The translations under genes and the position numbers were made by a program. The notes under the pieces were generated by a model, which saw nothing but the letters and a program-made list of their open reading frames with translations, was not told where the DNA came from and ran no database searches. Below are positions 1,171 to 64,000 of a stretch of DNA of 64,000 nucleotides, one piece after another. Within the stretch, counting starts at the first letter, position 1, and the number at the start of each line of letters is the position of its first letter. This stretch comes from Candidatus Woesearchaeota archaeon (GTDB taxonomy: Archaea; Nanobdellota; Nanobdellia; Pacearchaeales; GW2011-AR1), in NCBI GenBank assembly GCA_964573625.1, contig CAZNJU010000001.1, positions 589,879-653,878 of the forward strand, in the 5' to 3' direction.

Positions 1171-1413
1171 ATGACAGAAGAATCATATTTTGGAAGGGAA
1201 AGAAGAGTTGGTTACTTTGGGTTTTTCAGAGAGGTATTTTCCTATATCTTCACAGGCAATCGTGAAGCATATGACCGGATTCAACATGGCAGAAAATACT
1301 CTCCTCAAGATCATTCCGATACTCTCTCTTCAGTGCGACTGACTCGTATACCTCGCGCAAGACTAACTCCTATAAGGCGTATAAGACTTACCAGAATACG
1401 CAGAGTCAAATAA
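1171..1413 (+). CDS. Small hypothetical protein with an Arg-rich repeated C-terminus
   Basis: 80-aa ORF; tail RLTRIPRARLTPIRRIRLTRIRRVK. Confidence 0.6.
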   Translation: MTEESYFGRERRVGYFGFFREVFSYIFTGNREAYDRIQHGRKYSPQDHSDTLSSVRLTRIPRARLTPIRRIRLTRIRRVK

Positions 1414-1483
1414 CCATTTTCATACCCCCTATAGAGTGACAACAAATAGGAAGATTTAAATATAAATGTCACTCGTGTAGAAC

Positions 1484-2479
1484 ATGGAGCATAAGACTAT
1501 CACCGCAGGGATTATTGTGAGTATTCTATTAGTCGCAGTTTTACCTATTATTGCAATGGAAGAGCCCTATGCAGCAATATCAGGAAGCGTTATTGCTGAG
1601 CCTTCGCAACAGACATCTGCCCGTAATGTTCTTTTATCGTTTAAAGACACAAATACTAACTGCTCATTATCAGGCGATCTATATCTTAACAATCAACTCT
1701 ACGGTGCTGTCGAGGAAGGGGAAATCGCAGTAACTGAATTACCTTCTAACTCTCTCATCGCAATCACGGGTAAAACAAGTCCGTGTTTCGGAAAAGATTC
1801 AAACATGTCTTTCTTTCAGTCATGGACGCTAACGAATGGAGACTACTATTATTTCGTTAATACCTCGGTTCCATTTCACTCATATGTCAGCCCACGACAA
1901 CCACCAACATTAACGGCAATGCAACAGTTCGTCAGACCAGATGAAGCGCGCCCAGCATTAGCACGTGTTAACCTTAACGGTAATAATCCAATGGTTGAAA
2001 ATCTTGATAGAATTGCACAATTTCCTCTAGCTTACATTTCAGACAGTTCATTGTTCAATCGACGCGACTACTGGCAGACTCCCCGAGAGACACTTATGCA
2101 TAAAGAAGGAGATTGTGAAGACTGGGCAACAACTATTCTTTCACTCATGCGAGCATATTACCCTTCGGTTGAATGTTACGATGCTCTCTGGTCAACACAC
2201 GTGAGCGTGTTCTGCAGCGTAGACAACAGTTTCATTATGTATGATCAAGAACATACTCGCCAGGCAGTTTCATTTATTCCAAATCCTACACATGATGAAC
2301 TAATAACGCAGGAAAATCGTCGCGAGGCACGAGCATTCCTCAAAGGCTATTTCAGTGAGTTCGGCATTCGTTCAGATGAACGTGCACTACAAGCGTTATA
2401 CAACGATAAGTCAATAAAAACATTCGATTCTACAGAGTCTTTCATTACATGGATGTTGAATGAAAGCAATGCATTGTAA
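1484..2479 (+). CDS. Secreted or membrane-anchored transglutaminase-like cysteine peptidase
   Basis: N-terminal TM; YWQTPRETL..EGDCEDWA motif followed by His and Asp. Confidence 0.75.
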   Translation: MEHKTITAGIIVSILLVAVLPIIAMEEPYAAISGSVIAEPSQQTSARNVLLSFKDTNTNCSLSGDLYLNNQLYGAVEEGEIAVTELPSNSLIAITGKTSPCFGKDSNMSFFQSWTLTNGDYYYFVNTSVPFHSYVSPRQPPTLTAMQQFVRPDEARPALARVNLNGNNPMVENLDRIAQFPLAYISDSSLFNRRDYWQTPRETLMHKEGDCEDWATTILSLMRAYYPSVECYDALWSTHVSVFCSVDNSFIMYDQEHTRQAVSFIPNPTHDELITQENRREARAFLKGYFSEFGIRSDERALQALYNDKSIKTFDSTESFITWMLNESNAL

Positions 2480-2527
2480 TATAATTCTTCCCAACAAATC
2501 TTATAAAAGGAAGCAACATAGAAAAAT

Positions 2528-3559
2528 ATGAAATATCTTGTTATTTTCGCGTTTTTGATGCTTCTTCCATTTGCCCATGCAGCCTGTCTTACTTCATCAG
2601 ATGAGTATGCAGTTGAAGTTGTCGTCCCCAATTACACTATTTTCGGGATTAGTCAATTCGCTCAGATTAAAGGCACATCCTACCAGGCACTAAGCCAGTA
2701 TAGTCCTAAACTTCTTGCCCAGTTTAAAGAATCAAAAGATATACCTGGACTGGATGTTCGGATACAAATTCCAACTAAATCGACGCAGATCAGAAAGCCA
2801 TATACGAGACTCGTATCATTCAGCGTACCAGGAACGATACGTTCCTCAGGTGCATCCACATTTGCAGGCTGGTCTGGTGTATGTAATGATATTACCTGCG
2901 CGTATGACAAAAACAATGTGCGAGTAACGGGAGATAGATCCTCAAATCAGGTTATTGTGGAATTTAACATGGAACTTCCTGCCTGTTCATCATCCTGTCT
3001 AGGTACTTGTTTTGCAGGACCAAAAGAGTCAAAATGTCTTGCCTTACCAATAAAACGCGATCTTGATCAGATAGTAAGATATCTTAACGCGAGTTCAACA
3101 TTTGATCCGCTCCTTCAATCATATCGTAGCGGAGATTCAGATTATCTTATACTGGATGATATTGCTCCAACAGAAAGCGTCTCAACTGATTGGAGAGAAG
3201 CCATCAAGCAAGAACTAGTGTTTCTTGACGCACGAGGAATCGTTTCAATTTCACCATCAGATATACAGTCAATTTCATCAATCGCTTCACAAGGGCTTGC
3301 AGGCCACAATCATAGAATCGTGTACGATTCGTCTGATAATTCATGGAAACAATACAGTCAAGCAAATGGAAGCACACTCACCACAGATATAGATTGTTCA
3401 ACATACACTCTTCCAATTATTAAAGAACCAGCAAAACTTAAAACATATTACTTGATTCCGCTCATTCTTATTATCTTTGGCCTTGTTCTTTTGATCATAC
3501 TCGTTATAACAGCACGTATAGTCAGTCACAATAGAAAACATGTCCGCAAAAAGATTTAA
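2528..3559 (+). CDS. Secreted protein with a C-terminal TM anchor
   Basis: Signal peptide, paired Cys, C-terminal hydrophobic helix plus basic tail. Confidence 0.75.
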   Translation: MKYLVIFAFLMLLPFAHAACLTSSDEYAVEVVVPNYTIFGISQFAQIKGTSYQALSQYSPKLLAQFKESKDIPGLDVRIQIPTKSTQIRKPYTRLVSFSVPGTIRSSGASTFAGWSGVCNDITCAYDKNNVRVTGDRSSNQVIVEFNMELPACSSSCLGTCFAGPKESKCLALPIKRDLDQIVRYLNASSTFDPLLQSYRSGDSDYLILDDIAPTESVSTDWREAIKQELVFLDARGIVSISPSDIQSISSIASQGLAGHNHRIVYDSSDNSWKQYSQANGSTLTTDIDCSTYTLPIIKEPAKLKTYYLIPLILIIFGLVLLIILVITARIVSHNRKHVRKKI

Positions 3560-27761: not shown

Positions 27762-28552
27762 TTAATCTCGGCACGTGTCTGCCTCAAAAGCTGTTTGAGT
27801 TTCTGCTTAGTGTCATCAATGCCCCTATTCAGCCGTTCTTGCAATTAACACTTAATCTCTTATCAGAACCCATTAATCTTAACCTCTTTGTGAATATGTG
27901 GGTTATTGTCATTTATTGTTTATCGATGTTCTATGCGCTGTTGCTCTTAGCATCTGGCTTTAACTTCATGATTTCAGGTTATGACTCAGCCAAACGAGAG
28001 AACGCAAAGAGCTGGCTCAGAAACGTGGTTATTATGATTGTGCTGGTTCAAGCATCCTTCTTTATCTACCAACTCGCTATTGATTTGTCCGCAAGTGTAA
28101 CCTCTGCTACACTTACCTTAGTTGATCACAATTTCTTTCTCATCACGCTCAACAGTATTTCCGATCTGGGAATGGCGTTACTCTTCGGACTCATTTACAT
28201 CATGACGCTTATTGTAACGTCTTTGGTGTTGGTTATTCGGTATACGTTTGTAGCGATCGGCGTGGTCTTGTTTCCCGTAGCTATTTTCTTTTATTTCATG
28301 CCGCCTCTAAGATCGTATGGCTCGTTGCTCCTTAATTTCTTAGGAAGTGCTATTTTTATCACGGTTATTGATGCAATACTATTAGCCGGCTTCTCGCAAT
28401 TGGTAAACGTGAGTATCTTTGGCAATATGAAAGTAATTGTGCTTATTGCAGCCTTTCTATGTATCAGCGCCTTCATGCTCTTTATTCTCTGCTTTAGTAT
28501 TGTCAAAGCAGGCTTTAGCGTCTATCATGAAGTAAAGAGGTTCAAGTCCTAA
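27743..28552 (+). CDS. Polytopic membrane protein, VirB6/TrbL-like position
   Basis: About 6 TM segments; lies between the pilin and VirB4 genes; TTG start. Confidence 0.65.
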   Translation: MVDCGLINLGTCLPQKLFEFLLSVINAPIQPFLQLTLNLLSEPINLNLFVNMWVIVIYCLSMFYALLLLASGFNFMISGYDSAKRENAKSWLRNVVIMIVLVQASFFIYQLAIDLSASVTSATLTLVDHNFFLITLNSISDLGMALLFGLIYIMTLIVTSLVLVIRYTFVAIGVVLFPVAIFFYFMPPLRSYGSLLLNFLGSAIFITVIDAILLAGFSQLVNVSIFGNMKVIVLIAAFLCISAFMLFILCFSIVKAGFSVYHEVKRFKS

Positions 28553-31506
28553 TGGTCTACGAAATACCACAACAACTTGAGTATAAGGAAAAGATCATGT
28601 TTGGTCTTACGTTCAAGCAACTTGCATACGCGTTGCTCTTTGCACCATTTATTGCGTTCTTGTTCTTCAAAACAAGTCTTCCGTTCTATCTTAAGATGTT
28701 CTTCTCTATCAATCTGTCAGGATTGGCGGTCGGATTTATCTTTCTCGATCTAGACAAACATCTGAAGAATTGGACTATCTGGTTGAGAAGTAGAAAAATC
28801 GTAAAACCAGAGAAGCGAGCACAGCTCATTCCTATTAAAGAGATCAAAAACAACATAATTATTAATAAAAAAGGAAAGAAGATTGCGGTTCTCAAGATCA
28901 CTCCGATTAATTTCTCCATAAAGCCCGAAAATGTAAAAGAAACAATCTCGGCCATGTTTCAAAAGTTTCTCAATAGCCTTGACTTTCCCGTTCAAATCGT
29001 CATGAATACAGAAACACTGGATTTACGCGACTATCTTACCGAAGTTGATAAGAAAATACAGCAAAATAAGTTGTTTGCAGAGCTTTTTACGAAATATAAA
29101 GAACATTTAGAAGCAATTACACAACAGAATAAAGTCATGAACAGAAACTTCTACTTGGTCATTCCTGAAAAGAACGATATAGAAATTCAGCTACAATTAT
29201 GCAAGAATAAACTGGAAAGTATTGGCCTCAGAACGTCTCGTGTCCTTAATGCTGAACTGAGCAAACTAACGAATCACTTTTTTGAATGTGTAGAAGAAGA
29301 CGGATCACTTATTCCCCCTACTATAGAAAATACGCCTTCCTATGTGAAAGTAGGTACTACGTTTCATAGAACCATTGCAGCCTATGGCTATCCGAGAACC
29401 GTAGAAGCAGGTTTTCTAGATAAAATCGTAAGCAGTTCAGGTAATTTTGATCTTTCGATTCATATTGAACCGTATGATATTGAAACCATGATGGTAGATA
29501 TCAATAAAGAGCTTCAAAAGCAGCGAGCTGACCTCTTTAGTGCTAAATCCAAAGGTATTTTGAATCCGAGTTTAGAGATCAAATACAAAGACACGAAAGG
29601 AGTGCTTACCAACCTTCAGAAAGGTGTAGAGAAGCTTTTCAATGTAGGTCTCTATATTAATTGCAGAGCTGCAAGCAAAGCAGAACTTGACCTGCTTACT
29701 CGAAAAGTAGAGTCAGAACTTAATGCGTTGCTCATTATTCCTAAACAACCTTCTTTTAGGATGCTTCAAGCCTTGCAATCGTGTGCTCCTTTGGCGATGA
29801 ATCATCTGAAAATCCGTAGAAACGTGCCTACCGGTGCGTTATCGGCTTTCTTTCCCTTTACTTCTTCATTCCTACAAGCTGATGCAAATGGTATTTGGTT
29901 CGGACTCAATAAAAATAACATTCCTATTATCAAAGACATCTTTAGTTTGAGCAATCCTAATGGTTTTTGCCTTGCAAGTTCTGGTTCAGGGAAAAGCTAT
30001 ATGGCCAAACTCTTCATTGCGCGGCATTTGATGAATGGTACGAAGGTCATGGTTATTGATCCACAAGGAGAGTATCGCGGTCTGGTAGAACGGTTTAAAG
30101 GGCAACGTATTGATTTAAGCAGGTCTTCTAACACGATTATTAATCCGTTAGACCTTATGGGACATGAGTACGCGGAGAAACGTCTTGCGCTGATGGATCT
30201 GATGCCTTTAATGCTGGGTGAACTGACCGAACCCCAGAAATCGTTTATTGATGTTGCTCTTACAACCGCCTATGAAAATTGCGGCATTACAAATAATCCT
30301 GAAACATGGAATAACAAACCCCCTATTCTAGAAGATATCCTACGCGTATTGACTAGTATGGAACGAAAGGCCAGTAGCTTAGAAAAGATGACGATTCGAA
30401 GCATTTCCAATCGATTACGCATGTACGTTGATGGTGTATTCTCATTTCTCAATAAGCAAACGACAATCAATTTCAATAATCGGTTTGTTTGTTTTGATAT
30501 AGGAAGCTTACCTAAGCAAGTAAAGCCAGTCATGATGTTTCTGGTGCTTGACTATGTATACATGAAGATGAAGAGCGATCTTGAAAGAAAGCTCTTAGTA
30601 ATAGATGAAGCATGGTCTATTCTGAGCCGTGCAGAAGAAGCTTCGTACATCTTTGAAATCGTCAAAACGTGCAGGAAGTTCAATTTAGCGCTGTTCCTTA
30701 TTAATCAAGAAGTAGAAGGGCTCTTAACATCTGAAGCAGGAAAGTCAGTTCTTGCTAATAGTTCGTATACTCTATTGATGCGTCAAAAACCAGCCGTTAT
30801 CAAAAGCATCCAAAATACGTTCTCACTTAGCGAGACAGAGCGCATGTTTCTTCTTACCGCAGCCGTAGGAGAAGGCCTCCTTATCTTAGATGATGAACAC
30901 TCAGAGATTCGTATTGTTGCGTCTGAAGAAGAACATGCAGTTATAACCACTAATGCGGATGAGCGATTGAGTCAGCAAAAGACTAATCCTCAAGATCATG
31001 TTCAAAAACAAAAGTCAGTCAGTATAACCGTAGATTCAGATAAGCGATTCTATTTATCGCGTAATGTATCCAAAGATAATCGAGACTATCTTCTCTCAAA
31101 GGGCTACGTTTTAGCTGCTCATAAGAATATTCATGGAAAAAAAGAAAGCTATCTCTTAAAGAAACGAGCAAATGAGAATATGGAACATTTCTTTCTTACG
31201 TTTGACATTGCCGAGTATCTGAAGACTTTAACAGACCAAGTTTATTTGTATGAAACGACTAAACCAGATATCGTTTTCGAACTTAAGGGAAAAAGGTATG
31301 CGATTGAAGTTGAAACCGGTAAAACACTTCAGACTTTTAGAAAACAGTTAGATGAGAAAATAGCTGTACTCAATGAAGAATACGAAAAGAGATGGTGTTT
31401 TGTAGTTACGAACGAGAACTTTGCTCCAACTTACAATACATTAGGAAAAACATTCACAAGAACGACGTTTCTTAAACAATTTTCAAAATGGATTAAAAAG
31501 GTCTAA
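28552..31506 (+). CDS. PrgI/VirB3-like + VirB4-type ATPase + C-terminal PD-(D/E)xK-like domain fusion
   Basis: EKIMFGLTFKQL N-terminus; ASSGSGKS Walker A; VIDPQGEY; VIDEAW Walker B; KPDIV..YAIEVETG C-terminus. Confidence 0.85.
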   Translation: MVYEIPQQLEYKEKIMFGLTFKQLAYALLFAPFIAFLFFKTSLPFYLKMFFSINLSGLAVGFIFLDLDKHLKNWTIWLRSRKIVKPEKRAQLIPIKEIKNNIIINKKGKKIAVLKITPINFSIKPENVKETISAMFQKFLNSLDFPVQIVMNTETLDLRDYLTEVDKKIQQNKLFAELFTKYKEHLEAITQQNKVMNRNFYLVIPEKNDIEIQLQLCKNKLESIGLRTSRVLNAELSKLTNHFFECVEEDGSLIPPTIENTPSYVKVGTTFHRTIAAYGYPRTVEAGFLDKIVSSSGNFDLSIHIEPYDIETMMVDINKELQKQRADLFSAKSKGILNPSLEIKYKDTKGVLTNLQKGVEKLFNVGLYINCRAASKAELDLLTRKVESELNALLIIPKQPSFRMLQALQSCAPLAMNHLKIRRNVPTGALSAFFPFTSSFLQADANGIWFGLNKNNIPIIKDIFSLSNPNGFCLASSGSGKSYMAKLFIARHLMNGTKVMVIDPQGEYRGLVERFKGQRIDLSRSSNTIINPLDLMGHEYAEKRLALMDLMPLMLGELTEPQKSFIDVALTTAYENCGITNNPETWNNKPPILEDILRVLTSMERKASSLEKMTIRSISNRLRMYVDGVFSFLNKQTTINFNNRFVCFDIGSLPKQVKPVMMFLVLDYVYMKMKSDLERKLLVIDEAWSILSRAEEASYIFEIVKTCRKFNLALFLINQEVEGLLTSEAGKSVLANSSYTLLMRQKPAVIKSIQNTFSLSETERMFLLTAAVGEGLLILDDEHSEIRIVASEEEHAVITTNADERLSQQKTNPQDHVQKQKSVSITVDSDKRFYLSRNVSKDNRDYLLSKGYVLAAHKNIHGKKESYLLKKRANENMEHFFLTFDIAEYLKTLTDQVYLYETTKPDIVFELKGKRYAIEVETGKTLQTFRKQLDEKIAVLNEEYEKRWCFVVTNENFAPTYNTLGKTFTRTTFLKQFSKWIKKV

Positions 31507-31598: not shown

Positions 31599-32135
31599 TT
31601 ATCTAAAATAAAAAGTCCCTCTACAATTTTCCGGCATAGTGCTTGGATTTGATTTACGAATTATCTTCGAATCGACAGCCTCACCACCAATCCAAACGGG
31701 CCCGAAATCTATAGGGACCCCATTTAATTTAGTATCAATTTCTAGAGCTACAGCAAGTTTTGAAGGACCGTCAGCGTATTCTCTCAACCCTGCCTTATCC
31801 CCTACGGGAGCTCCTAAAAAAGTAACGCACGAATAGAGACCTATATCATTAGTTGCTATTCCGAACATTCTTTTACCGAAACTCGTAAAAACCATAAGCG
31901 CTCCTGGAGCACCAAGAGAATCTTTTACCATGCCTTTTTTACCTTCCCAAGCAGCCACATTTTGAATTCTACCATATAACGTGGCTCTCGATGGTCTCTC
32001 TCGCACAATAATTCTTCCTAAAAGATCCTTGGCAACATCTTCAGCAGGTCTAGCGAAAAAACTTCTATCAAGTTTGCTCTTTTCTGAAGAAATGTAAAGA
32101 TCCCCTGATTTGATATAACTCATCAATGGTAACAT
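31599..32135 (-). CDS. 3-methyladenine DNA glycosylase (MPG/AAG) homolog with a degenerate active site
   Basis: FFARPAEDVAKDLLGR and DGPSKLAVALEI are present; GRIVETEAY is replaced by GRIQNVAAW. Confidence 0.75.
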   Translation of the reverse strand: MLPLMSYIKSGDLYISSEKSKLDRSFFARPAEDVAKDLLGRIIVRERPSRATLYGRIQNVAAWEGKKGMVKDSLGAPGALMVFTSFGKRMFGIATNDIGLYSCVTFLGAPVGDKAGLREYADGPSKLAVALEIDTKLNGVPIDFGPVWIGGEAVDSKIIRKSNPSTMPENCRGTFYFR

Positions 32136-32173
32136 AACATAACCTTTATAAACTTATTGGGAGCCCTATTTCC

Positions 32174-35100
32174 ATGCAAAAAAGACCCAATTTTAATGAA
32201 CTATGTGAGGAAAAGGCAAGGGCCGGGGATAAACATGCCTCGTATATACTGAGAAGAGCGAGTGATACTGGAGGTGTTCCGTTACAGATCGAAATAGATT
32301 ATGAACGAAAAAGGCTTGAATCATACGAGCGTGCAGGTATAGAAACGTATAAAGTAGTGACAAAAACAGGCGAACAGACAAGAACACTCGGAGACTTACG
32401 AGCCCAAATAGGAAGAGCAGAAGAACTAGGGATACTTGATGGTAGCCTTTCTATGAGCTATGAAGGAGCAAAAAGAGTATATGAAAAAGTACGCGATATT
32501 ATATCAAAAAAAAATTCTAGTGATAGAAAAGGTTCTTCAGGCAAATTCCTTGAAATATTAGATGCTTTTGATCCCGCCCGAGATAGCGATCTTATTGCTA
32601 CAGGGGCTTTTGTCCTTGATCCACAAGTACGAAAATATGTTGATGGGAGATTAGAAGGATTGTATAAGGCAGTGTTAAGCGTGGGTTCGCATAAACGTTC
32701 AGGTTATACTCTACCTGTTCATGAGTCAAGACCCTCCTTTGCCGGCGGAGACGTAGTCTCTCCACGATTAAAGGCATTGTTAGAGTCCATTCCGGAAGCT
32801 AAAACAACTGAAGAAGAGGAGAATCAAAAAGCACTTAAACTACTTATACACAAAAGAGCAGAAAGAGATGTCTTCCCTCTCTTTAAGCATGATGTTGGCA
32901 GTGCATTTTCACAATTAGAGAAGCTACTAGGTAAAGAGAAAAATCTGCATCTTCGTCAAGAATATGAATCATTAAGAGATGTCTATCAAAAATATCTGGA
33001 ATTTGAAGTACCTGGTGTAAACCCTAATTTTGTCGATCCAACTACGGGGCAGAAAGATGTTTTGCCTTCGTTACATCAAAGGATTGGTATTTATGGGATT
33101 GTTAAAAGTTTAGATGATAACGGACGATTTGGAATTTGGGACGGCGGTGGGACAGGTAAAACAGCACAAGTTATTTTGGCACAGCCGCTTATAGAGCGCA
33201 AGTTAGCGGAGCGAGGACATATTTTTAACAGAGCAGTGATTGTGGGGCCCAATCCTTCAAAAAGAGCATGGAAGAAAGGATTGATAGGAAGCGATACTGA
33301 GAGATATTTAGCTGAGCCGCAAAATGTGTTTGTTATTAACGGTGAACAAAAGACTGACGAATTACTTGACAGGATGGGCAAGGCTAAGTGGATCGTAACT
33401 AATTATGAGCAACTTATAACGCGCGTTAATGGAGACGACAGACTTCTTGTAGATGTATTGACTGATATGGGTGTGGACTTAGTAGCATTTGATGAGGCGC
33501 AGCACATTAAAGGACAGAGAAATATGACTCGTGGCGGAAGCACAAGAGAGCCAACGTTAACTCAAAGCGCCGCTGCAAGACAATTAGCTCTTCAAGCAAA
33601 ATGTTTTGTTCCATTATCGGCAACTCCTATTTCAAATGGTCTTGATGATTTTGCAGTCCTCTATCATCTTATTAACCCTGAAGAACTTAAAGACCCAAAG
33701 AAATTTCAGGATAAAATTAAAGATTCTCCAAGAAAACTTTACACGTTCTTTCATGAAAAGTCAGTGCGTAGAACGGCAGAAGACATTAATGAGGAATTAG
33801 ATTGGTCAGAAGATATTTGTGAGGTCGAGTTAGACGAAGTTCAAAGGCAAATTTACGATCATATTGTTACACATCGTCCTGGAAATTGGATGACTCAAGC
33901 TCGAAAAGCGCTTACTGATCCGCGACTTGTCGATCCTGAAATTTTAAAGAATGTAGGAGTTTTAGGACAAATTACCCACAGAAATTCGGCTAAGTATAAG
34001 GCATTGGAGGAATTGTTAAAATCTGATGATGGGCCCATAGCGCGCGGAGAGAAATTCGTGGTGTTTTCTATGTTAATGGAAGGGGTAACTCAGAAAGGAA
34101 ATGAAAATCTTCAGAGGAGATATGCTGAAATGGGAATAGCACAAGAATATGATAAATTACAGCTTGACCTATCAATAGATTCATTATTAAGTCAAGCACT
34201 GAAAGACGAATATCAGCGAGACTTTAAAATAGGAGTAATTGATGGTACGGTAGACGCTTCTAAGGAAAGAGATAAGGTGGTCGAAGGCCTTGCTGGTGAA
34301 TTATCAGGTATTGTATGCACAACAAAAACCGGCGGAGAAAGTTTAGACTTTACAGCAGCTAATTGGATGTATTTCTTAGATAAAGACTTTAAACCAGACA
34401 CAGAAGAGCAAGCTATTTGGAGAGAATTAAGACGGGGACAAAAAAGAAAAGTTAATATTTGGCATCTAGAAGCCCTAGATACACTTGAAGAAAAGCTTGA
34501 TGTATATGTAGAAAAGAAAAGACTTACAGCAAAAATAGCAATGGATGGTCATCCTCCTACGAAAGAAGAATGGGAGCTGCTTGATGACACAGAAGGTAAG
34601 CGCCTAGGAGACCTAATAAAAAGAGGGCTAGGTGGAAAGTCTATTAACGTATATGATGCGCCCATCACAGAGATCTCTGACTTTGAAGCAAAGAAAAGAA
34701 CTGGTAGAGGGGGCAAGCATTATGGAACAGGTGTTTTCGATTATACTACTACTGAAGCTCAAGAAATTATGCGTCTTATTGGTCAAAAGCCACAAGAATG
34801 CTGGTTCGATCCTAACTTTGTAGAGCTTTACATGAAAGCACTTCCTAACTTATCTACACATGTTACTAATCTTGCCCGTGTTGCAGATTTAGTAGCTCGA
34901 GCAAAACGAGGAGAGATAGAGTTCCCAGGAAACGTTCTTGCTGAAGCTTCCGGGCCATCGATGCTCTATCGTGCTTACCAAGAATTAAGACCTCTTATAG
35001 AAAAACGAAGACTTGCAGTGCCTAAAGTCACCGATAGAGATTTATCTCCGATTATGTTGGCTGAAGGAACCAATCCGAACAAGATTCTCGGCGATATGAC

Positions 35101-35725
35101 TGGAAAAGATAGCACGTTACAGGCAGAAAGTTTTGATATGGTAGACAACGGATCTCTTGCTCTATTAAGAAATCCTGCAGAGGTTTATCAATCATTACTC
35201 GAATCTCATCGTATCTTGAAGCCAGAAGGGTTACTTGAACTTACTCTTAAGAATAAACGATTTTTGGACAGCGGTGAAGATGACAAAATTATTGGATTTC
35301 ATGCAGGATTAGAACGACTCGGATTTAAGGTTCTAACAGGAAAGAATGAAGGATTTGCCATAAGCAAAAATCTTACGAGAAGACTCAAAGATATGCATGG
35401 TGAACATTTTGCAGAAGCGTATGCTGCTAAATTGGCTAATACTTATCTGCTCGTAGCACAAAAAATGGACAATCCTGTTCACGTCCACTCTGATAATTTC
35501 TGGTTTGAAACCATATATCCCGAAGCAGAAGAAGATAAGGCTCATGAGCAAACCCTTCAAGGACCTTCCTCGCTATCATCTTTAAAGGTGAGGAGCAAAG
35601 GAGCGAAAATAAAGAGAGAACCAAGAGCAAAAGTTACCGAAACGAACGATTTCATTCATTTAGCGGATAGCAGCGGAAATGTTCATTCTGTGAGAAAAAA
35701 ACAAGGAGAAGATAAAAATGAGTAA
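32174..35725 (+). CDS. SNF2-family helicase/translocase fused to a class I SAM methyltransferase-like domain
   Basis: GGTGKT, DEAQ, SATP, GGESLDF, EEQAIWRE..RGQ. C-terminal VLAEASGP, DRDLS..ML, ESFDMV, HRILKPEG. Confidence 0.85.
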   Translation: MQKRPNFNELCEEKARAGDKHASYILRRASDTGGVPLQIEIDYERKRLESYERAGIETYKVVTKTGEQTRTLGDLRAQIGRAEELGILDGSLSMSYEGAKRVYEKVRDIISKKNSSDRKGSSGKFLEILDAFDPARDSDLIATGAFVLDPQVRKYVDGRLEGLYKAVLSVGSHKRSGYTLPVHESRPSFAGGDVVSPRLKALLESIPEAKTTEEEENQKALKLLIHKRAERDVFPLFKHDVGSAFSQLEKLLGKEKNLHLRQEYESLRDVYQKYLEFEVPGVNPNFVDPTTGQKDVLPSLHQRIGIYGIVKSLDDNGRFGIWDGGGTGKTAQVILAQPLIERKLAERGHIFNRAVIVGPNPSKRAWKKGLIGSDTERYLAEPQNVFVINGEQKTDELLDRMGKAKWIVTNYEQLITRVNGDDRLLVDVLTDMGVDLVAFDEAQHIKGQRNMTRGGSTREPTLTQSAAARQLALQAKCFVPLSATPISNGLDDFAVLYHLINPEELKDPKKFQDKIKDSPRKLYTFFHEKSVRRTAEDINEELDWSEDICEVELDEVQRQIYDHIVTHRPGNWMTQARKALTDPRLVDPEILKNVGVLGQITHRNSAKYKALEELLKSDDGPIARGEKFVVFSMLMEGVTQKGNENLQRRYAEMGIAQEYDKLQLDLSIDSLLSQALKDEYQRDFKIGVIDGTVDASKERDKVVEGLAGELSGIVCTTKTGGESLDFTAANWMYFLDKDFKPDTEEQAIWRELRRGQKRKVNIWHLEALDTLEEKLDVYVEKKRLTAKIAMDGHPPTKEEWELLDDTEGKRLGDLIKRGLGGKSINVYDAPITEISDFEAKKRTGRGGKHYGTGVFDYTTTEAQEIMRLIGQKPQECWFDPNFVELYMKALPNLSTHVTNLARVADLVARAKRGEIEFPGNVLAEASGPSMLYRAYQELRPLIEKRRLAVPKVTDRDLSPIMLAEGTNPNKILGDMTGKDSTLQAESFDMVDNGSLALLRNPAEVYQSLLESHRILKPEGLLELTLKNKRFLDSGEDDKIIGFHAGLERLGFKVLTGKNEGFAISKNLTRRLKDMHGEHFAEAYAAKLANTYLLVAQKMDNPVHVHSDNFWFETIYPEAEEDKAHEQTLQGPSSLSSLKVRSKGAKIKREPRAKVTETNDFIHLADSSGNVHSVRKKQGEDKNE

Positions 35726-37067
35726 GAAAAGACCAAACGGCTATTGGCAAAATAGAAGCTATCTTGAAAGAGAATTTAGAAGAATAGCAGGAGAAATGGG
35801 ACGATTTCCTACTACTACCGAATTAGACGATATGGGATATTCTAATATAGTTAGGGCAGCAGTAGTTTATCATGGAGGTGTAAACGCCGTAAGAGAATCA
35901 TTGGGATACGATAAGCCTGTAGATAAAAGAACTAGAGAATCCCTTTGGCCTGATTTTAAGAAGTGGGAACAATACGGTGTTAATAATGGCTTTGATAAGA
36001 AGAGTCCTACCGAAATAAATGATAGCAAAAAGAAGAAAGATAGAGTATGGTTCAAAAAAGGCCAGAGAGCAGGATGGATAAGTGATTTTGATTTCAAGAG
36101 AAAGAGAATTGAAGGCCAATGGAAAGATGCTCAGACGTGGATAAGCGACGGAAATGCTAGAGGATATGACAGTAAAGGCCCAAAGGAATTGGCGGATTCT
36201 AAAGATAAATACGAAAGAAGTTGGTACAATAAAGGGCAAAGAAAAGATTGGGTCAAGGATTTCAATTTTAATAGGCAGTGTGTTCCTGTTACTTGGCAAA
36301 CTCAGGAGTCTTGGAAACAATATGGCGTGGATAGAGGATACGAAGATAGAGTATGTCATACATTAAGAAAAAGTAAAGACTTTCAAGAAAGATCGTGGTT
36401 AACAAAGGGGGAACGGGAAAAATGGATAGATCATTTTCAATTTGCTGAGCGTGAGCCTTCCAATAGATTATGGACTGAAGATAAGGTTGCAGAAGAATGT
36501 AGGAGAGTGGTTGAGAAAAAAGGATATTTGCCTTCAAATGGAGAACTTATTAAATTAGGTTTAGCGCCACTAGCTTCAGCTATCCCCAAACACGGAGGCT
36601 ATCCATATTTCAGAAAAAAGCTGGGTCTTAAGCAAGTTAGCAAGTTATCGGGCTATTGGCAAGACTGGAAAAACGTACAAATTGAATTAAAGGAAGTAAT
36701 AGGGAAATTAGGTCATTTTCCTACAGCAGTGGAACTCAGTCAACTAAAAAAACATAGTCTAGCTATAGCATTACATAAATATCATAAGGGCATATTTGCA
36801 GTACGCGCAAGGATGGGATATAAAGAATCTCAAAGAGCGCATGGAACGCTTTCTACAATGCAAGATGGGGAGTTGATTGAATACGTTAGACAGCATTATG
36901 GAGGAAAAACATTAAAAGAAATGCGTAGCCTAGACGGGTCTTTGCTCGGAGTTCTCTATAAAAGAAATTTAGTGAGAGAAATAGTAGAACTTGGTCTCGT
37001 CACAGCGCGAGGTATAGCAAGTGGCGGAAATTCTTTACTTGAGCAGTATGTAGGAGAGACTATCTAA
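35718..37067 (+). CDS. Modular HTH-like repeat protein 1 (A-B-B-B-A-A-C), tail SLLEQYVGETI
   Basis: Internal ~60-aa repeats read from the translation. Confidence 0.8.
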   Translation: MSKKRPNGYWQNRSYLEREFRRIAGEMGRFPTTTELDDMGYSNIVRAAVVYHGGVNAVRESLGYDKPVDKRTRESLWPDFKKWEQYGVNNGFDKKSPTEINDSKKKKDRVWFKKGQRAGWISDFDFKRKRIEGQWKDAQTWISDGNARGYDSKGPKELADSKDKYERSWYNKGQRKDWVKDFNFNRQCVPVTWQTQESWKQYGVDRGYEDRVCHTLRKSKDFQERSWLTKGEREKWIDHFQFAEREPSNRLWTEDKVAEECRRVVEKKGYLPSNGELIKLGLAPLASAIPKHGGYPYFRKKLGLKQVSKLSGYWQDWKNVQIELKEVIGKLGHFPTAVELSQLKKHSLAIALHKYHKGIFAVRARMGYKESQRAHGTLSTMQDGELIEYVRQHYGGKTLKEMRSLDGSLLGVLYKRNLVREIVELGLVTARGIASGGNSLLEQYVGETI

Positions 37068-37768
37068 TGACCGAGCCAAAACCAGCAAAAGAAAGAAAAG
37101 TTAGAACCGGAGCAACTAAGAAAGAAGATCACTTTTGGACAAAATATGAAAATGTAACCTCAGAATTAGAAAGAGTAATGACTGCTTATAGTTTTAAAAC
37201 AATTCCTTCTAAAAAACAACTTGATGAGGCGGGAGAAAGCTCCCTGGGCAGAGCTATCGGAATGCATGGAGGATTTAGAAAAATAAGGAAGTCCTTTGGA
37301 GAGAAAAAGATAATTACGAAAGTCGGTTCGTGGAAGAGTCAAGAGTATGCTATTGCAAGGGCTCGCGAGATAATGAAAGAGCATGGGTTTGAAAAACTTC
37401 CTGGTAACAAGGAGCTCATTAAATTAGGTTATATGAATCTTGTTCGTGCTATTTATACGCATCATGGAGGGTATCAAAATTTTAGAAAACTGCTCGGAGA
37501 AGAAAGCCCCTATCATAAGAGAGGAAGATGGCAAAGTCTTGACAATTGTGTATATGAAGTAATGAAAATTATGAAGGAACAAGGATTGGAAGAAGTCCCT
37601 TCTAGACGTTATATAGCTACATTCGGGAAATACGGTGGAATGATGTCAGCAATAGATCAGAAACATGGCGGTTTCAGTCGATTTAAAGAAGAAGTACAAG
37701 CAAGACAAGGAAATAATAGAAGTTCTCTTTTAGAATCATATGTGGGAGAAGAAGCTCATGAAGAGTAA
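37067..37768 (+). CDS. Modular repeat protein 2 (A-A-A), tail SLLESYVGEEAHEE
   Basis: Three W...E....P....L...G...L..AI...HGG...FRK..G repeats. Confidence 0.8.
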   Translation: MTEPKPAKERKVRTGATKKEDHFWTKYENVTSELERVMTAYSFKTIPSKKQLDEAGESSLGRAIGMHGGFRKIRKSFGEKKIITKVGSWKSQEYAIARAREIMKEHGFEKLPGNKELIKLGYMNLVRAIYTHHGGYQNFRKLLGEESPYHKRGRWQSLDNCVYEVMKIMKEQGLEEVPSRRYIATFGKYGGMMSAIDQKHGGFSRFKEEVQARQGNNRSSLLESYVGEEAHEE

Positions 37769-38702
37769 GAAAATGATAGAAGTTGAAAGAATAATTGGAG
37801 AACCCGTTGCAGACTACTTTAGAAGAGAGTATGAAGAGAATGATAGAAGCTCGACTTGGATAGCCGACCAAACAGGGATTGGCCCAGCTACTTCGCTTAA
37901 ATGGTTAAAAAGATTTGGAATACCGATAAGAGAAAAGTATCAAAAAAATAAAATACAGCCGCCAAGGAAAAAACCATCTAGAGCGAAGTTACAAAAATTA
38001 TACGTTCAAGAAGGGTTTAGCTTAAAAGATCTAATTAAAAAGTACAAGGTCTCAGACAAAACTATAAAAAAATGGCTAGGGGATTATGAAATTACACTAA
38101 GAGATCGAAGTCAAGCAGCATTGCCTCTTGGATTTCAGCGCCCTTCTAAAGAAGAATTAAACCACTTATATAACGTTCAACGGCTTGACTTGATTGATAT
38201 TTCAGACAAATATGGAGTAGGTCAGGGCACCATTAGTAGATGGATGGAAGAGAACGGCATAAAAAGAAGAAGTATTTCGGAAGCAAAATTGCCTGCCGGC
38301 TTAAAAGTTCCATCAGAGAAAGAGATGAGAGAAAAGTATGAAGTTAAAAGATTAAGTATGTTGGCCATTGCGCAAGAATATAATGTAAATCACAGTACGG
38401 TAGGTAGCTGGCTTGCGCTCCATGGGATAAAAAAGAGAAATAACGAAGTTTCTCCAGGCGAGTGGAAGAGTCTCGATTTTGGATTAGAGCAAGGAAAACT
38501 ATTTTTAGAAGGAAACCCAGAGCATAAAGAATTGCCTAGTTCAAACGTTCTCCGACAAAGAGGGTACGGAGGTTTAGCGAAAGCTATCAATAAATATTAC
38601 GGCGGATTTCCTATTTTTAGAGAAATGTTAAAAGATCATCTGGGTAAAACAAAAGGAGTACAAAATAAATCCCTTTTAGAATCATATGTGGAGAGACAAT
38701 GA
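37758..38702 (+). CDS. Modular repeat protein 3 (D-D-D-D-A), tail SLLESYVERQ
   Basis: Four HTH repeats ending W...GI..R, plus one A repeat. Start refined. Confidence 0.8.
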   Translation: MKSKKMIEVERIIGEPVADYFRREYEENDRSSTWIADQTGIGPATSLKWLKRFGIPIREKYQKNKIQPPRKKPSRAKLQKLYVQEGFSLKDLIKKYKVSDKTIKKWLGDYEITLRDRSQAALPLGFQRPSKEELNHLYNVQRLDLIDISDKYGVGQGTISRWMEENGIKRRSISEAKLPAGLKVPSEKEMREKYEVKRLSMLAIAQEYNVNHSTVGSWLALHGIKKRNNEVSPGEWKSLDFGLEQGKLFLEGNPEHKELPSSNVLRQRGYGGLAKAINKYYGGFPIFREMLKDHLGKTKGVQNKSLLESYVERQ

Positions 38703-50865: not shown

Positions 50866-52068
50866 TTAGGGAGAGACTGCATGTTCCTTAAGCTTACGAA
50901 CCAGAACTTCGTACACCTCCTTATCATTAATGAGCATATCGAGCATACTATTGATTCCTTTCGTTTCCGCTTCCTTGACTAATATCTCTTGCGCTGCCTC
51001 TTTGTGTAATACGAAGCCACAAACATTACAGAACTTGTTAGTTGTAGGATTAGACTGATGACAGCGTAAGCATGAAAGAGGCTTAAGCTTTGGTTCAATA
51101 ATCGTTTGTGCAGTCGCAATGTTATTCGCACGCAAGATTGCATCATCTGCATCTCTGCCCGACATGTGCACGTAAATGCCTGCCATCTTAGATCCCTGTG
51201 TCCACCCAAAGTAATGCTTCATAGCTGCTTCACTCATAATCTTAGCAAGATGTGTGGCTCTGCTATGTCTAAACAAGTGTGCATGCACATGTTTCTTAAT
51301 GCCTGCGCGTGATGCAGCCAGTTTAATCACATCTACCATACGAGTATAGGTCAAAAAACCGTTAGAGCTTTGCGGATTCCACCAGACCGGTGCTTCAGGA
51401 TCGAAATTCTTCGGATGCACATTAATCCATTGTTGTAAATACGGCGCACTATTAATCACTAATATCTTGCGCATACCGGTTTTACCATTGACAGTAAGGC
51501 GAGCACCATGTTGTTCAAACGAAATATGCTTAATACGCATGGTTCCAATCTCAGAAATCCTGCATCCCGATTCAGCAAGCGACGCAATCAAAGCCTTATT
51601 GCGGAAGGTATCGCACGCTTGTATCATTTGAAGTGATTCTTCTTCAGTTAGCAGCTCTTCAGGCAATTTTCGAGTGCTTTCATGCAGCGCAATAGAAATC
51701 CACTTGACTTCCAACGGATAAACGCCTTTATCAGTGATGCCTCGCATGTACCGATAGAGCTTACGAGTCATAACTTTGAAGCACTTCTTACTTTCAGGAG
51801 CTAAATCTGTCTGTTCAAGATCAGCAATAACGCGTCGTAAGTCCTTCTCAGTCGCATCTCCAAACGGCATGCCCAACATCTTGCTTAATTTTCGTACATC
51901 AAGCAAATACCGTCCAATCTTAGCGACACCAATCCCTTCACTTAGAAGATAATCCTTGAACGCGATAGCCGTTTCTTTATTAATGGGGCTCATATCTATA
52001 GAATTCTTAATGAGTGCAATCTGGCGATCCAGCTGCCCTTTGTAATCGTGTAAGTCTATCGTCATCAT
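50866..52068 (-). CDS. Tyrosine recombinase/integrase with a C-terminal zinc ribbon
   Basis: ESGCRISE, GKTG, HLFRHSR, FGW, IYVH; CLRC..CNVC. Start refined. Confidence 0.92.
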   Translation of the reverse strand: MMTIDLHDYKGQLDRQIALIKNSIDMSPINKETAIAFKDYLLSEGIGVAKIGRYLLDVRKLSKMLGMPFGDATEKDLRRVIADLEQTDLAPESKKCFKVMTRKLYRYMRGITDKGVYPLEVKWISIALHESTRKLPEELLTEEESLQMIQACDTFRNKALIASLAESGCRISEIGTMRIKHISFEQHGARLTVNGKTGMRKILVINSAPYLQQWINVHPKNFDPEAPVWWNPQSSNGFLTYTRMVDVIKLAASRAGIKKHVHAHLFRHSRATHLAKIMSEAAMKHYFGWTQGSKMAGIYVHMSGRDADDAILRANNIATAQTIIEPKLKPLSCLRCHQSNPTTNKFCNVCGFVLHKEAAQEILVKEAETKGINSMLDMLINDKEVYEVLVRKLKEHAVSP

Positions 52069-52140
52069 CGTGTCATGTGATAACGCATCCTCGGTGCTTT
52101 TTATAGCACGATCATCAGACGGGCGTGCAACCAACTCTAA

Positions 52141-63619: not shown

Positions 63620-64000
63620 TTAATCTCGGCTCGTGTCTGCCGCAGATGTTCTTTGAGTTCGTACTCGGAATCATTAACGCACCGATTCAGCCGTTTCTGC
63701 AGCTCACGCTCCATTTGCTATCAGAACCAATCAATCTACACCTGTTCATGCACTTTTGGGCGATTATTGTGTACATGCTATCGATGTTCTACGCACTATT
63801 GCTCGTGTCTGCAGGGTTTAGCATGATGCTCGCAGGCCCCGATGTAGAAAAACGAGAGAAATCGAAAGAGTGGCTCAAAAACGTCGTGATTATGATTATT
63901 CTTGTGCAAGCATCGTTCTTTATTTATCAGCTTATCTTAGACCTAGCGGCAGCCATGACCTCTGCTACACTAACGCTTGTCGATGGTAATTTCTTCCTCA
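63604..64000 (+). CDS. VirB6-like polytopic membrane protein, second copy (truncated by the window end)
   Basis: MACSLVNLGSCLPQMFFEF..INAPIQPFLQLTL matches 27743-28552. Confidence 0.8.
   Translation, partial: MACSLVNLGSCLPQMFFEFVLGIINAPIQPFLQLTLHLLSEPINLHLFMHFWAIIVYMLSMFYALLLVSAGFSMMLAGPDVEKREKSKEWLKNVVIMIILVQASFFIYQLILDLAAAMTSATLTLVDGNFFL

What the first reader, a model, noticed from the sequence alone, without database searches (positions are those of the whole stretch)
32174..35725. SNF2 translocase fused to a non-DNA-type class I methyltransferase domain
Seen: a complete SNF2 motif set plus a C-terminal Rossmann domain (EASGP, DRDLS..ML, ESFDMV, HRILKPEG) with no DPPY/NPPY motif. Knowledge: defence-system SNF2 proteins usually pair with amino-DNA methyltransferases or nucleases, whereas this domain resembles small-molecule/RNA methyltransferases. 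Inference: an unusual effector for the repeat-protein quartet downstream, with unknown substrate or using SAM as an allosteric ligand.
Basis: partly seen in the sequence, partly recalled or inferred. Interest (0 to 1): 0.65.

Follow-up and report, generated by a model that had tools for sequence, protein, structure and literature searches.

The report
SNF2-methyltransferase hub of archaeal module
A tiny symbiotic (DPANN) archaeon encodes a DNA motor fused to a methyltransferase of the RNA/small-molecule type. This protein is the core of a rare, undescribed gene set that always includes a DNA-repair glycosylase look-alike lacking its catalytic residue and a variable set of DNA-binding helper proteins, so it probably marks DNA in an unfamiliar way.

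Summary
ORF 32174-35725 is an intact 1183-aa protein with four parts:
- an orphan all-alpha N-domain;
- a complete SNF2 ATPase;
- a C-terminal class I SAM-methyltransferase fold (AlphaFold2 pLDDT 86; more than 1000 Foldseek hits, none of the top 50 a DNA amino-methylase);
- a disordered tail.

The methyltransferase domain belongs to the Methyltransf_11 / Rrp8 (Methyltransf_8) kind. It has no (D/N/S)PP(Y/F/W) motif, and no DNA-methylase Pfam family matches any of 27 relatives. Its SAM-binding motifs (GSGPS-type motif I, DRD-S--ML) are conserved family-wide.

SNF2 followed by this methyltransferase is an old, rare unit: 183 representatives among 1.84 billion proteins, including giant bacterial proteins.

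In DPANN archaea it heads a patchy accessory module, found in 8 of 401 genomes of the phylum. A divergently transcribed MPG/AAG-like gene has Ala or Ser in place of its catalytic Glu in 18 of 18 copies. One to eight translationally coupled repeat proteins share a C-terminal LLExY tail.

No match to DISARM, Dpd, BREX, Zorya or DarB-type dyads passes a membership test, and the papers searched held no description.

Function is untested. Best guess: adaptor-targeted, motor-driven methylation of DNA, read by the pseudo-glycosylase.

The parts
31599..32135 (-). MPG/AAG-like protein (P0006, 178 aa) lacking the catalytic glutamate. Likely a base-flipping reader rather than a glycosylase.
   Evidence: Pfam Pur_DNA_glyco 41.2 bits against a cut-off of 27. 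The profile-to-PDB alignment puts an invariant Ala under Glu125 of human AAG, the residue that is Q in the E125Q structure 1ewn. The position is Ala or Ser in 18 of 18 module-linked copies, while three stand-alone homologues in related genomes keep (V/I)ETEAY. It is the only MPG homologue in this genome.
32136..32173 (.). 38-nt divergent intergenic region with a palindromic TATA-like box TTTATAAA at 32145-32152, 21 nt before the hub ATG. Probably a shared bidirectional promoter giving a leaderless hub mRNA.
   Evidence: Sequence read. The same CTTTATAAAC box sits 21-22 nt before the hub ATG in L001, G004 and G005 and lies in the same divergent spacer in G375, although the proteins are only about 47-50% identical. 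Promoter function is inferred.
32174..35725 (+). Hub gene (P0001, 1183 aa): N-terminal alpha domain, SNF2 ATPase, helical linker, class I methyltransferase, disordered tail.
32174..33073 (+). Residues 1-300: conserved all-alpha domain with one beta-hairpin and no known relative. Candidate docking scaffold.
   Evidence: AlphaFold2 pLDDT 86.6, pTM 0.78. No Foldseek hit at E<=1e-3 in the PDB or BFVD. No Pfam hit. The docking role is inferred only.
33140..34438 (+). SNF2 ATPase core, residues 323-755 (lobe 1 323-568, lobe 2 674-755), with all helicase motifs intact.
   Evidence: Best library match is phrog_62 'DNA helicase', E 9.8e-43.
34571..34918 (+). Residues 800-915: linker plus a helical cap preceding the Rossmann fold. 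Contains the invariant T-x-AQ, CW and LYM motifs.
34919..35488 (+). Residues 916-1105: class I SAM-methyltransferase fold of the Methyltransf_11 / Rrp8 kind. Motif I is EASGPS 924-929, motif II DRDLSPIML 954-962, motif IV FDMVDNGS 987-994, and post-IV LLESHRILKPEG 1008-1019. A family-specific helical hairpin (HGEHFAEAY 1075-1083) follows.
35489..35722 (+). Residues 1106-1183: poorly conserved, charged C-terminal tail, predicted disordered where it was modelled.
35718..37067 (+). Adaptor 1 (P0002, 449 aa). Built of repeats and ends in SLLEQYVGETI. Overlaps the hub stop by 8 nt.
37067..37768 (+). Adaptor 2 (P0003, 233 aa). Three type-A repeats, ends in SLLESYVGEEAHEE.
37740..38702 (+). Adaptor 3 (P0004, 320 aa). 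Four HTH repeats of the kind found in phage HNH homing endonucleases, plus one type-A repeat. Ends in SLLESYVERQ. No nuclease domain.
   Evidence: phrog_7545 and phrog_8446 'HNH endonuclease', E about 1e-28; Pfam HTH_23 and HTH_28.
38699..39709 (+). Adaptor 4 (P0005, 336 aa). Repeats, ends in SLLEQYIED. Last gene of the coupled operon.

Best explanation
Shown:
- P0001 is an intact fusion of an SNF2 dsDNA-translocase core and a SAM-methyltransferase fold of the Methyltransf_11/Rrp8 type.
- It is the constant, central gene of a rare accessory three-part module of DPANN archaea. The parts are (i) the hub, (ii) a divergently transcribed MPG/AAG-like protein whose catalytic Glu is replaced by Ala or Ser, and (iii) one to eight translationally coupled repeat proteins with a shared C-terminal phi-L-x-x-Y-phi tail. 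At least one of these proteins is built of DNA-binding modules like those of homing endonucleases, without a nuclease.

Inferred mechanism:
- The repeat proteins act as interchangeable DNA-recognition adaptors, held to the hub through the shared tail. The tail either docks on the orphan alpha-helical N-domain or self-associates.
- The SNF2 motor tracks along duplex DNA from those entry sites.
- The methyltransferase transfers methyl groups from SAM to DNA. The target is most plausibly a purine ring nitrogen rather than an exocyclic amine. Three leads point that way: there is no amino-methylase motif; the closest solved relative by sequence is Rrp8/nucleomethylin, which from my knowledge is an rRNA N1-adenine methylase; and the obligate partner derives from a methylpurine-binding enzyme.
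- The Glu-less MPG-like protein then flips out and holds the marked purine without cutting it, as a reader or cap.
- The biological role is probably genome conflict, marking or disabling particular DNA. Locus-specific regulation is the second possibility.
For: - Fusion and fold.
- SAM-binding motifs conserved from DPANN to giant bacterial relatives: GSGPS, or ASGP in some; D at the end of beta-2; FD-V after beta-4.
- No DNA amino-methylase family in any of 27 relatives, against 26 of 27 for Methyltransf_11 and 16 of 27 for Methyltransf_8. A2 profile against the PDB: the best hit is 2zfu, nucleomethylin, E 6.8e-6. Among the Foldseek hits it also has the highest target-normalised TM-score, 0.59.
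- MPG-like gene inside the cluster in 16 of 20 loci. The other four are cut at or near the hub's 5' end.
- Catalytic Glu replaced in 18 of 18 module-linked copies, while three stand-alone homologues in sister genomes keep ETEAY.
- In this genome SLLE[QS]Y[VI] occurs exactly four times among 2817 six-frame ORFs, at the four adaptor C-termini. Equivalent tails occur in all other modules read. In variants the tail also sits on the MPG-like protein (L007, G038) and on the hub (G038).
- Adaptor 3 matches the HTH arrays of phage HNH endonucleases, E about 1e-28.
- Patchy distribution: 8 of 401 genomes of the phylum, 2 of 9 in the genus, and a deletion remnant in G005.
Against:
- The methyl acceptor is not indicated by any direct evidence. 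Methyltransf_11-type enzymes act on small molecules, lipids, proteins and RNA. I know of no characterised enzyme of this type that methylates DNA.
- The Rrp8 match covers only the C-terminal half of the domain, and Foldseek TM-scores are modest (0.38-0.40 on the query).
- The window protein has Ala at the first glycine of motif I.
- The type-A repeats match PF18780 only weakly: 2 of 9, E 0.018. DNA binding is therefore well supported for adaptor 3 only.
- Docking of the tail to the N-domain is untested. The hub itself carries the tail in G038, which fits self-association better.
Confidence: 0.4

Rival explanations
1. The methyltransferase domain acts on a protein or an RNA, not on DNA. Candidate proteins are the adaptors, a chromatin protein or the hub itself. 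The SNF2 motor only brings the enzyme to chromatin or to a transcription complex.
For: All structural neighbours are small-molecule, lipid, protein or RNA methyltransferases. The nearest by sequence is Rrp8/nucleomethylin, which from my knowledge methylates rRNA. No target-recognition domain typical of DNA methylases was found.
Against: Every other part of the module points to duplex DNA: the SNF2 core, HTH arrays like those of homing endonucleases, and a partner derived from a DNA base-flipping enzyme that has specifically lost hydrolysis. No RNA-binding domain was detected.
Confidence: 0.2
2. A transfer-associated, DarB-like role. The hub modifies or protects DNA that moves through the neighbouring VirB4-type apparatus, as the methylase-helicase dyads of phages and conjugative elements are thought to do.
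For: In this window the module lies directly after a VirB4/PrgI-type ATPase gene (28552-31506). In G005 a deletion has fused the hub's first ~60 codons to the 3' part of a VirB4-like gene, so the two were neighbours there too. The best SNF2 match is a phage family (phrog_62). Distant relatives are giant multi-domain proteins.
Against: No VirB4 homologue lies within about 10 kb of the module in any locus outside this genus. Flanks there are housekeeping genes. The DarB-type dyad has an EcoKI/TaqI-like adenine methylase N-terminal to the helicase (PMC5512222); here both the order and the methylase class differ.
Confidence: 0.15
3. The Rossmann domain is a non-catalytic SAM (or SAH) sensor that gates the SNF2 motor.
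For: The cofactor-binding motifs are the best-conserved part. The residues after beta-4, where catalytic motifs usually lie, vary across the wider family: DNES, DNGS, ECSS, VNMS. The window protein has Ala at the first motif-I glycine.
Against: Within the DPANN clade the post-beta-4 D-N-x-S and many surface positions of the cap are invariant, which is more than cofactor binding needs. A dedicated reader of alkylated purines would have no product to read.
Confidence: 0.1
4. An ordinary restriction-modification, DISARM, BREX, Dpd or Zorya-type defence helicase with a degenerate amino-methylase.
For: Weak SNF2-level similarity to ZorD, DpdE, DrmD, BrxH and HmaA.
Against: NCBIfam scores are 15-19 bits against cut-offs of 500-610. 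No partner gene of those systems turned up in what was scanned: the five module neighbours against Pfam, NCBIfam and PADLOC, and a sample of ORFs further out against Pfam. There is no nuclease, no (D/N/S)PP(Y/F/W) motif and no DNA-methylase Pfam hit.
Confidence: 0.03

Closest known systems
DNA methylase-helicase dyad of polyvalent proteins (archetype DarB of phage P1; Iyer et al. 2017, PMC5512222)
   Same: One polypeptide joins a SWI2/SNF2-clade ATPase to a SAM methyltransferase. It occurs in accessory or mobile contexts, and relatives are embedded in giant multi-domain proteins. The proposed logic is motor-driven processive methylation of DNA.
   Different: In DarB-type dyads the methylase is an EcoKI/TaqI-like N6-adenine enzyme placed N-terminal to the helicase and preceded by LPD36. 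Here the methylase is C-terminal and of the Methyltransf_11/Rrp8 type, without an amino-methylase motif. It is preceded by an orphan alpha domain. It also comes with a pseudo-glycosylase and tailed adaptors, which that paper does not describe.
DISARM (SNF2 helicase DrmD with methylase DrmMI/MII, DrmA/B/C); also Dpd (DpdE), BREX (BrxHII with PglX) and Zorya II (ZorD)
   Same: A prokaryotic SNF2-family ATPase works with a DNA-modifying activity in a multi-gene accessory cluster.
   Different: Scores lie far below the family cut-offs. Helicase and methylase are one protein here. No DrmA/B/C, DpdA-K, PglZ or ZorA/B gene and no nuclease turned up in what was scanned of the neighbourhood.
Rrp8 / nucleomethylin (Pfam Methyltransf_8; PDB 2zfu). 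From my knowledge it is the N1-adenine methylase of large-subunit rRNA.
   Same: Best solved relative of the C-terminal domain by sequence profile (E 6.8e-6), and the highest target TM-score by fold. It shares the post-motif-IV segment L-EA-R-LKPGG and the following LGF strand-helix unit. 16 of 27 relatives touch PF05148.
   Different: Only the C-terminal half aligns. The hub domain has its own helical cap and an inserted helical hairpin. Rrp8 is a stand-alone nucleolar RNA enzyme with no motor. Membership is not established.
Type I restriction-modification enzymes (HsdS specificity subunit, HsdM, HsdR motor)
   Same: Division of labour: exchangeable DNA-recognition subunits direct a methylase coupled to an SF2 translocase.
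   Different: Different motor clade, an amino-methylase, a nuclease domain, and a single HsdS rather than 1-8 tailed adaptors. This is a resemblance of logic only.
Human AAG / bacterial Mpg (Pfam Pur_DNA_glyco), for the partner protein
   Same: Same fold family. The aromatic at the DNA-intercalating Tyr162 position is kept.
   Different: Catalytic Glu125 is Ala or Ser in all module-linked copies, and about 11 residues after it, the His136 region, are deleted. The protein is obligately linked to the hub.

Membership tests
SWI2/SNF2 ATPases | SNF2-related N-lobe and Helicase_C lobe above the curated thresholds | tested here: met
   41.1 bits against 24.9 and 34.3 against 23.5. 57 solved SNF2 proteins match.
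SWI2/SNF2 ATPases | Intact motifs I, II, III, V and VI | tested here: met
   GGGTGKT, DEAQH, SATP, TGGESLDF and QxxxRxxRxGQ are present and nearly invariant in 36 homologues.
SWI2/SNF2 ATPases | DNA-stimulated ATPase and translocation | not testable with these tools
   Needs purified protein.
Class I SAM-dependent methyltransferases (Methyltransf_11-like) | Seven-stranded Rossmann-like methyltransferase fold | tested here: met
   AlphaFold2 pLDDT 86.3. 1055 PDB hits at E<=1e-3; the top 50 are class I SAM-dependent enzymes.
Class I SAM-dependent methyltransferases (Methyltransf_11-like) | Motif I (GxGxG-like loop after beta-1) and an acidic residue at the end of beta-2 | tested here: met
   E-A-S-G-P-S 924-929, GSGPS in most relatives; D956 is invariant in DRD-S--ML.
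Class I SAM-dependent methyltransferases (Methyltransf_11-like) | Pfam gathering score for PF08241 | tested here: inconclusive
   The window protein scores 18.2-18.5 bits, below 21.2. 26 of 27 close relatives hit at E<=1, best 4.7e-6. Distant family members pass, for example P0133 at 42.5 bits.
Class I SAM-dependent methyltransferases (Methyltransf_11-like) | SAM binding and methyl transfer | not testable with these tools
   Needs binding and transfer assays.
DNA amino-methyltransferases (N6A/N4C: N6_Mtase, N6_N4_Mtase, MethyltransfD12, Eco57I, MT-A70) | Catalytic (D/N/S)PP(Y/F/W) motif after beta-4 | tested here: not met
   No such tetrapeptide occurs in 1183 residues. The post-beta-4 sequence is D-N-G-S.
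DNA amino-methyltransferases (N6A/N4C: N6_Mtase, N6_N4_Mtase, MethyltransfD12, Eco57I, MT-A70) | Match to a DNA-methylase profile | tested here: not met
   None of 27 relatives matches any such Pfam family at E<=1. None appears in the Foldseek top 50.
DarB-like methylase-helicase dyad (polyvalent proteins) | EcoKI/TaqI-like adenine methylase N-terminal to the SNF2-clade helicase, with LPD36 in front | tested here: not met
   The order is SNF2 then methylase, and the methylase class differs. The N-domain has no known relative.
DISARM DrmD / Dpd DpdE | NCBIfam equivalog score and the system's partner genes | tested here: not met
   DrmD 15.4 bits against 610; DpdE 19.2 against 500. No partner gene turned up in what was scanned.
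Rrp8 / Methyltransf_8 | Full-length match to PF05148 or 2zfu | tested here: inconclusive
   Partial profile match, E 6.8e-6 over profile positions 201-249. 16 of 27 relatives hit, best E 0.0012.
MPG/AAG glycosylases (partner P0006) | Pur_DNA_glyco fold family | tested here: met
   41.2 bits against 27. A3 profile against AAG structures, E 2.9e-13.
MPG/AAG glycosylases (partner P0006) | Catalytic general base (Glu125 of human AAG) | tested here: not met
   Ala or Ser in 18 of 18 module-linked copies. Three stand-alone homologues keep ETEAY.

The most novel reading that the evidence does not exclude
The module is a nuclease-free writer-reader system for DNA. Tailed adaptors choose loci. An SNF2-driven, Rrp8-like methyltransferase writes a ring-nitrogen methylpurine (m1A, m3A or m7G type) into duplex DNA. 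A glycosylase that evolved into a non-cutting base-flipper reads or caps the mark. This would be a new kind of enzymatic DNA base modification and a new immune or epigenetic logic in archaea and ultra-small bacteria.
Probability: 0.2. Interest if true: 0.9.

Novelty: new variant of a known kind. Interest (0 to 1): 0.62.

Why it matters
- Motor-methylase pairs are a recurring theme of prokaryotic genome conflict, but the described ones I know of use amino-methylases.
- Here the same theme uses a different methylase class. It is locked to a repair glycosylase that has lost hydrolysis, and to a swappable set of DNA-binding proteins with a private docking tail.
- If the product is a methylated DNA base, it would most likely be one that is otherwise known only as damage. 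The pseudo-glycosylase would then be a natural 'reader' evolved from a repair enzyme.
- The system occurs in DPANN archaea, and related forms occur in other ultra-small, host-dependent lineages whose biology is almost untouched experimentally.
- The parts are few, soluble-looking and easy to express, so the question is directly testable.

Tried and rejected
- A single-sequence PDB search of the C-terminal 375 aa found nothing.
- Fold searches of the N-terminal domain against the PDB and viral models gave no significant match, so its role stays open.
- tblastn of the hub against 50,697 phage and 72,556 plasmid records gave only generic SNF2 similarity. Nothing covered the methyltransferase part.
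- PADLOC gave only sub-threshold helicase matches and nothing for the partners.
- Type-A repeats against the PDB and Pfam gave no significant match; PF18780 was hit by only 2 of 9 repeats at E 0.018. The 'homing-endonuclease repeat' label is therefore a weak lead for adaptors 1, 2 and 4.
- A search for att-like direct repeats around the module found none that bracket it.
- Insertion boundaries could not be defined by synteny with same-genus genomes. They are too diverged (about 60% identity for a housekeeping protein) and rearranged.
- No MPG-like domain is fused inside any of the 191 proteins fetched up to that call, mostly hub relatives.
- Literature searches on SNF2 with methyltransferase and DPANN terms returned no description of the module. 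One search was badly framed and uninformative.
- A standard R-M, DISARM, BREX, Dpd or Zorya assignment was considered and rejected on the membership tests.

Full report
**The gene**

The window is archaeal, from a 773-kb, four-contig DPANN genome; named homologues come from Woese-, Pace- and Nanoarchaeota. ORF 32174-35725 (+) is open and encodes 1183 aa.

Pfam finds SNF2-rel_dom (residues 323-568) and Helicase_C (674-755), both above threshold. 57 solved SNF2 ATPases match, and SsoRad54 matches across both lobes. Helicase motifs I, II, III, V and VI are intact and nearly invariant in 36 full-length homologues.

**The C-terminal domain**

There is no (D/N/S)PP(Y/F/W) motif anywhere.

Sequence evidence for the single protein is weak. 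Methyltransf_11 scores 18 bits, below its cut-off of 21.2, and phmmer finds no PDB hit. The claim was therefore tested in other ways.

- An alignment of 27 relatives (A2) gave an AlphaFold2 model with pLDDT 86.3 and pTM 0.84, showing the strand-helix order of a class I methyltransferase.
- Foldseek returned 1055 PDB hits at E<=1e-3. The top 50 are class I SAM-dependent enzymes acting on small molecules, lipids or RNA, or of unassigned function, and none is a DNA amino-methylase. Nucleomethylin/RRP8 (2zfu) ranks 3-4 and has the best target-normalised TM-score, 0.59.
- The A2 profile's best PDB sequence hit is also 2zfu, at E 6.8e-6, but it covers only the segment after motif IV.
- Scanned one by one, 26 of 27 relatives touch Methyltransf_11 and 16 of 27 touch Methyltransf_8, the Rrp8 family. 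None touches a DNA-methylase family.

Aligning distant family members corrected one detail. 'EASGPS' is the near-canonical motif I: relatives carry L-D-L-G-S-G-P-S or E-G-S-G-P-S, and the window protein has Ala at the first glycine. This loop, the acidic end of beta-2 (DRD-S--ML) and FD-V after beta-4 are kept from DPANN proteins to giant bacterial ones, and also in a very divergent hub in G038. That pattern argues for real SAM binding.

**The rest of the protein**

Residues 1-300 fold confidently (pLDDT 86.6) into an all-alpha domain with one hairpin. It has no significant structural neighbour in the PDB or in viral models. Residues 1106-1183 are variable and probably disordered.

**How common and how old the fusion is**

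Against 1.84 billion representative proteins, the methyltransferase-domain profile finds only 183 at E<=1e-3.

The close ones are 1100-1280-aa DPANN proteins with the same architecture. The distant ones include proteins of 2400-7000 aa. All four of the giants (2400 aa or more) scanned show the same order, SNF2-rel_dom then Helicase_C then Methyltransf_11, and where a source names them they come from Omnitrophota; a 1669-aa Saganbacteria protein has the same order, and a 1530-aa Margulisiibacteriota relative carries the SNF2 domains and the same C-terminal domain. SNF2 followed by this methyltransferase is therefore a conserved unit and not a chance fusion.

Within the window's phylum it is rare and patchy. 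It occurs in 8 of 401 high-quality genomes, in 8 genera, and in 2 of 9 genomes of the window's own genus.

In G005 only a scar remains. The hub's first ~60 codons are fused to the 3' part of a VirB4-like gene, and an intact MPG-like gene lies next to it. The module is thus accessory and can be lost.

**The constant neighbours**

I read 20 loci: the window, loci found through encoding contigs, loci from whole-genome searches, and a scan of GTDB genomes. Two partners always come with the hub.

The first is a Pur_DNA_glyco (MPG/AAG) homologue.
- It lies inside the cluster in 16 of the 20 loci, mostly divergent from the hub as here.
- The other four contigs end at, or within 1.1 kb of, the hub's 5' end.
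- Profile alignment to human AAG places an invariant Ala under Glu125. This is the very position that is Gln in the E125Q structure 1ewn.
- The residue is Ala or Ser in 18 of 18 module-linked copies. An 11-residue stretch after it is also missing.
- Three stand-alone homologues in related genomes that lack the module keep (V/I)ETEAY and the longer loop.
- The window's genome has no other MPG homologue.

The second partner is a set of one to eight genes translationally coupled to the hub. Here there are four, with overlaps of 8, 1, 29 and 4 nt.
- They are built from repeats and end in a shared tail: SLLE(Q/S)Y(V/I) here, with LEGLLESYAGE, LDGMLNDYIQG, LENFLEKYIGG, LLESLVGDL and others elsewhere.
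- In this genome the strict motif occurs four times among 2817 six-frame ORFs, and only at these four C-termini.
- In variants the same motif also sits at adaptor N-termini, on the MPG-like protein (L007, G038) and on the hub itself (G038). It may therefore be a self-associating helix rather than a plug for a fixed socket.
- Adaptor 3 matches the HTH arrays of phage HNH homing endonucleases strongly, at E about 1e-28. None of the four has a nuclease domain.
- The type-A repeat of the other adaptors resembles PF18780 only weakly.

A palindromic TTTATAAA box sits in the 38-nt divergent spacer, 21 nt before the hub ATG. The same box sits 21-22 nt before the hub ATG in L001, G004 and G005 and lies in the same spacer in G375. 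This fits a shared bidirectional promoter and a leaderless hub mRNA; that reading is an inference.

**What it is not**

- NCBIfam equivalogs for DrmD and DpdE score 15-19 bits against cut-offs of 500-610.
- PADLOC gives only helicase-level similarity, and nothing for the partners.
- Phage and plasmid collections hold nothing that covers the methyltransferase part.
- The described 'DNA methylase-helicase dyad' of polyvalent proteins (DarB type) has an EcoKI/TaqI-like adenine methylase N-terminal to the helicase (PMC5512222). Here both the order and the methylase class differ.
- Literature searches found no description of this module.

**Mechanism**

The architecture, conservation and linkage above are shown. 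The mechanism is inferred.

All parts except the methyltransferase speak for duplex DNA. The partner derives from an enzyme that flips alkylated purines and has lost only the hydrolytic residue. The methyltransferase has no amino-methylase motif. Its nearest solved relative by sequence is Rrp8/nucleomethylin, which from my knowledge methylates adenine N1 in rRNA.

The most economical reading has four steps. Adaptors select DNA. The motor translocates along it. The Rossmann domain methylates a purine ring nitrogen. The pseudo-glycosylase reads or caps the product. I give this about 0.4.

The rivals are:
- a protein or RNA substrate (0.2);
- a DarB-like role tied to the adjacent VirB4-type apparatus, a neighbourhood seen only in this genus (0.15);
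- a SAM-sensing, non-catalytic domain (0.1);
- a conventional defence helicase-methylase (0.03).

**Earlier notes of this scan**

Notes on other genomes describe the same module, also in CPR bacteria. They agree with the results here, but I treated them as leads and not as evidence. The tail, the Glu loss and the linkage were re-derived here.

**Verdict**

This is an undescribed variant of the motor-methylase theme, with an unusual methylase class and a pseudo-glycosylase partner. Its function is untested.

Noticed in passing
L030:12269-13285 (G005, same genus): A 338-aa ORF joins the first ~60 residues of the hub to residues 720-970 of a VirB4-like ATPase (48% identical to P0007). An intact Glu-less MPG-like gene lies divergently upstream. 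This looks like a deletion scar that removed the hub and the adaptors, and it shows that module and VirB4 operon were neighbours in this genus.
   Followed up: partly
window 28552-31506: The VirB4-like ATPase (P0007, 984 aa) carries a PrgI-like N-terminus. It also has about 170 extra C-terminal residues containing an AIEVETGK stretch that recalls a PD-(D/E)xK nuclease core. No Pfam hit covers that part.
   Followed up: no
L031:6095-15966 (G038, same order): A very divergent version of the module. It has a 1269-aa hub with an ASGP motif I and its own ...SYVQGGYK tail, two MPG-like genes (one tailed), and five adaptors ending in LLGKLYMEGD-type tails.
   Followed up: partly
L032:7988-9048 (G034): An MPG homologue that keeps the Glu (IETEVH) but has lost the Tyr. 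It is followed by a 146-aa protein ending in a tail-like LIEILKIYVKK, and no hub lies nearby. It may be an intermediate or a minimal form.
   Followed up: no
window 32000-40000: The module's coding strand is strongly purine-rich (GC skew +0.14 to +0.28, AT skew +0.13 to +0.25), against about 0 in the flanks. This reflects the Lys/Glu/Arg/Gly-rich proteins.
   Followed up: no
window 28100-28142 and 63958-64000: A 43-nt direct repeat, 79% identical, 35.9 kb apart. It lies in the gene before VirB4 and again at the window's end, which suggests a second paralogous secretion or pilus operon.
   Followed up: no
L045:1-3379: The hub homologue of a Pacearchaeota bin is split into two overlapping frames (1-597 and 557-3379). 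This is either a frameshifted pseudogene or an assembly error. Its five downstream adaptors are intact.
   Followed up: no
window 43869-44654 (-) and 50866-52134 (-): A generic stand-alone class I methyltransferase (Methyltransf_31, _25 and _11 above threshold) and a tyrosine integrase lie downstream of the module. Neither recurs next to the module elsewhere.
   Followed up: no
L007, L038, L046: Contigs carrying the module are labelled Acidobacteriota, Gammaproteobacteria and Methanosarcinales in their records. The Acidobacteriota and Methanosarcinales contigs appear to be the same contigs as G265 and G054 (matching contig lengths), which the whole-genome search placed in the window's archaeal phylum, so the record labels probably reflect mis-binning. 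The Gammaproteobacteria contig was not cross-checked.
   Followed up: partly
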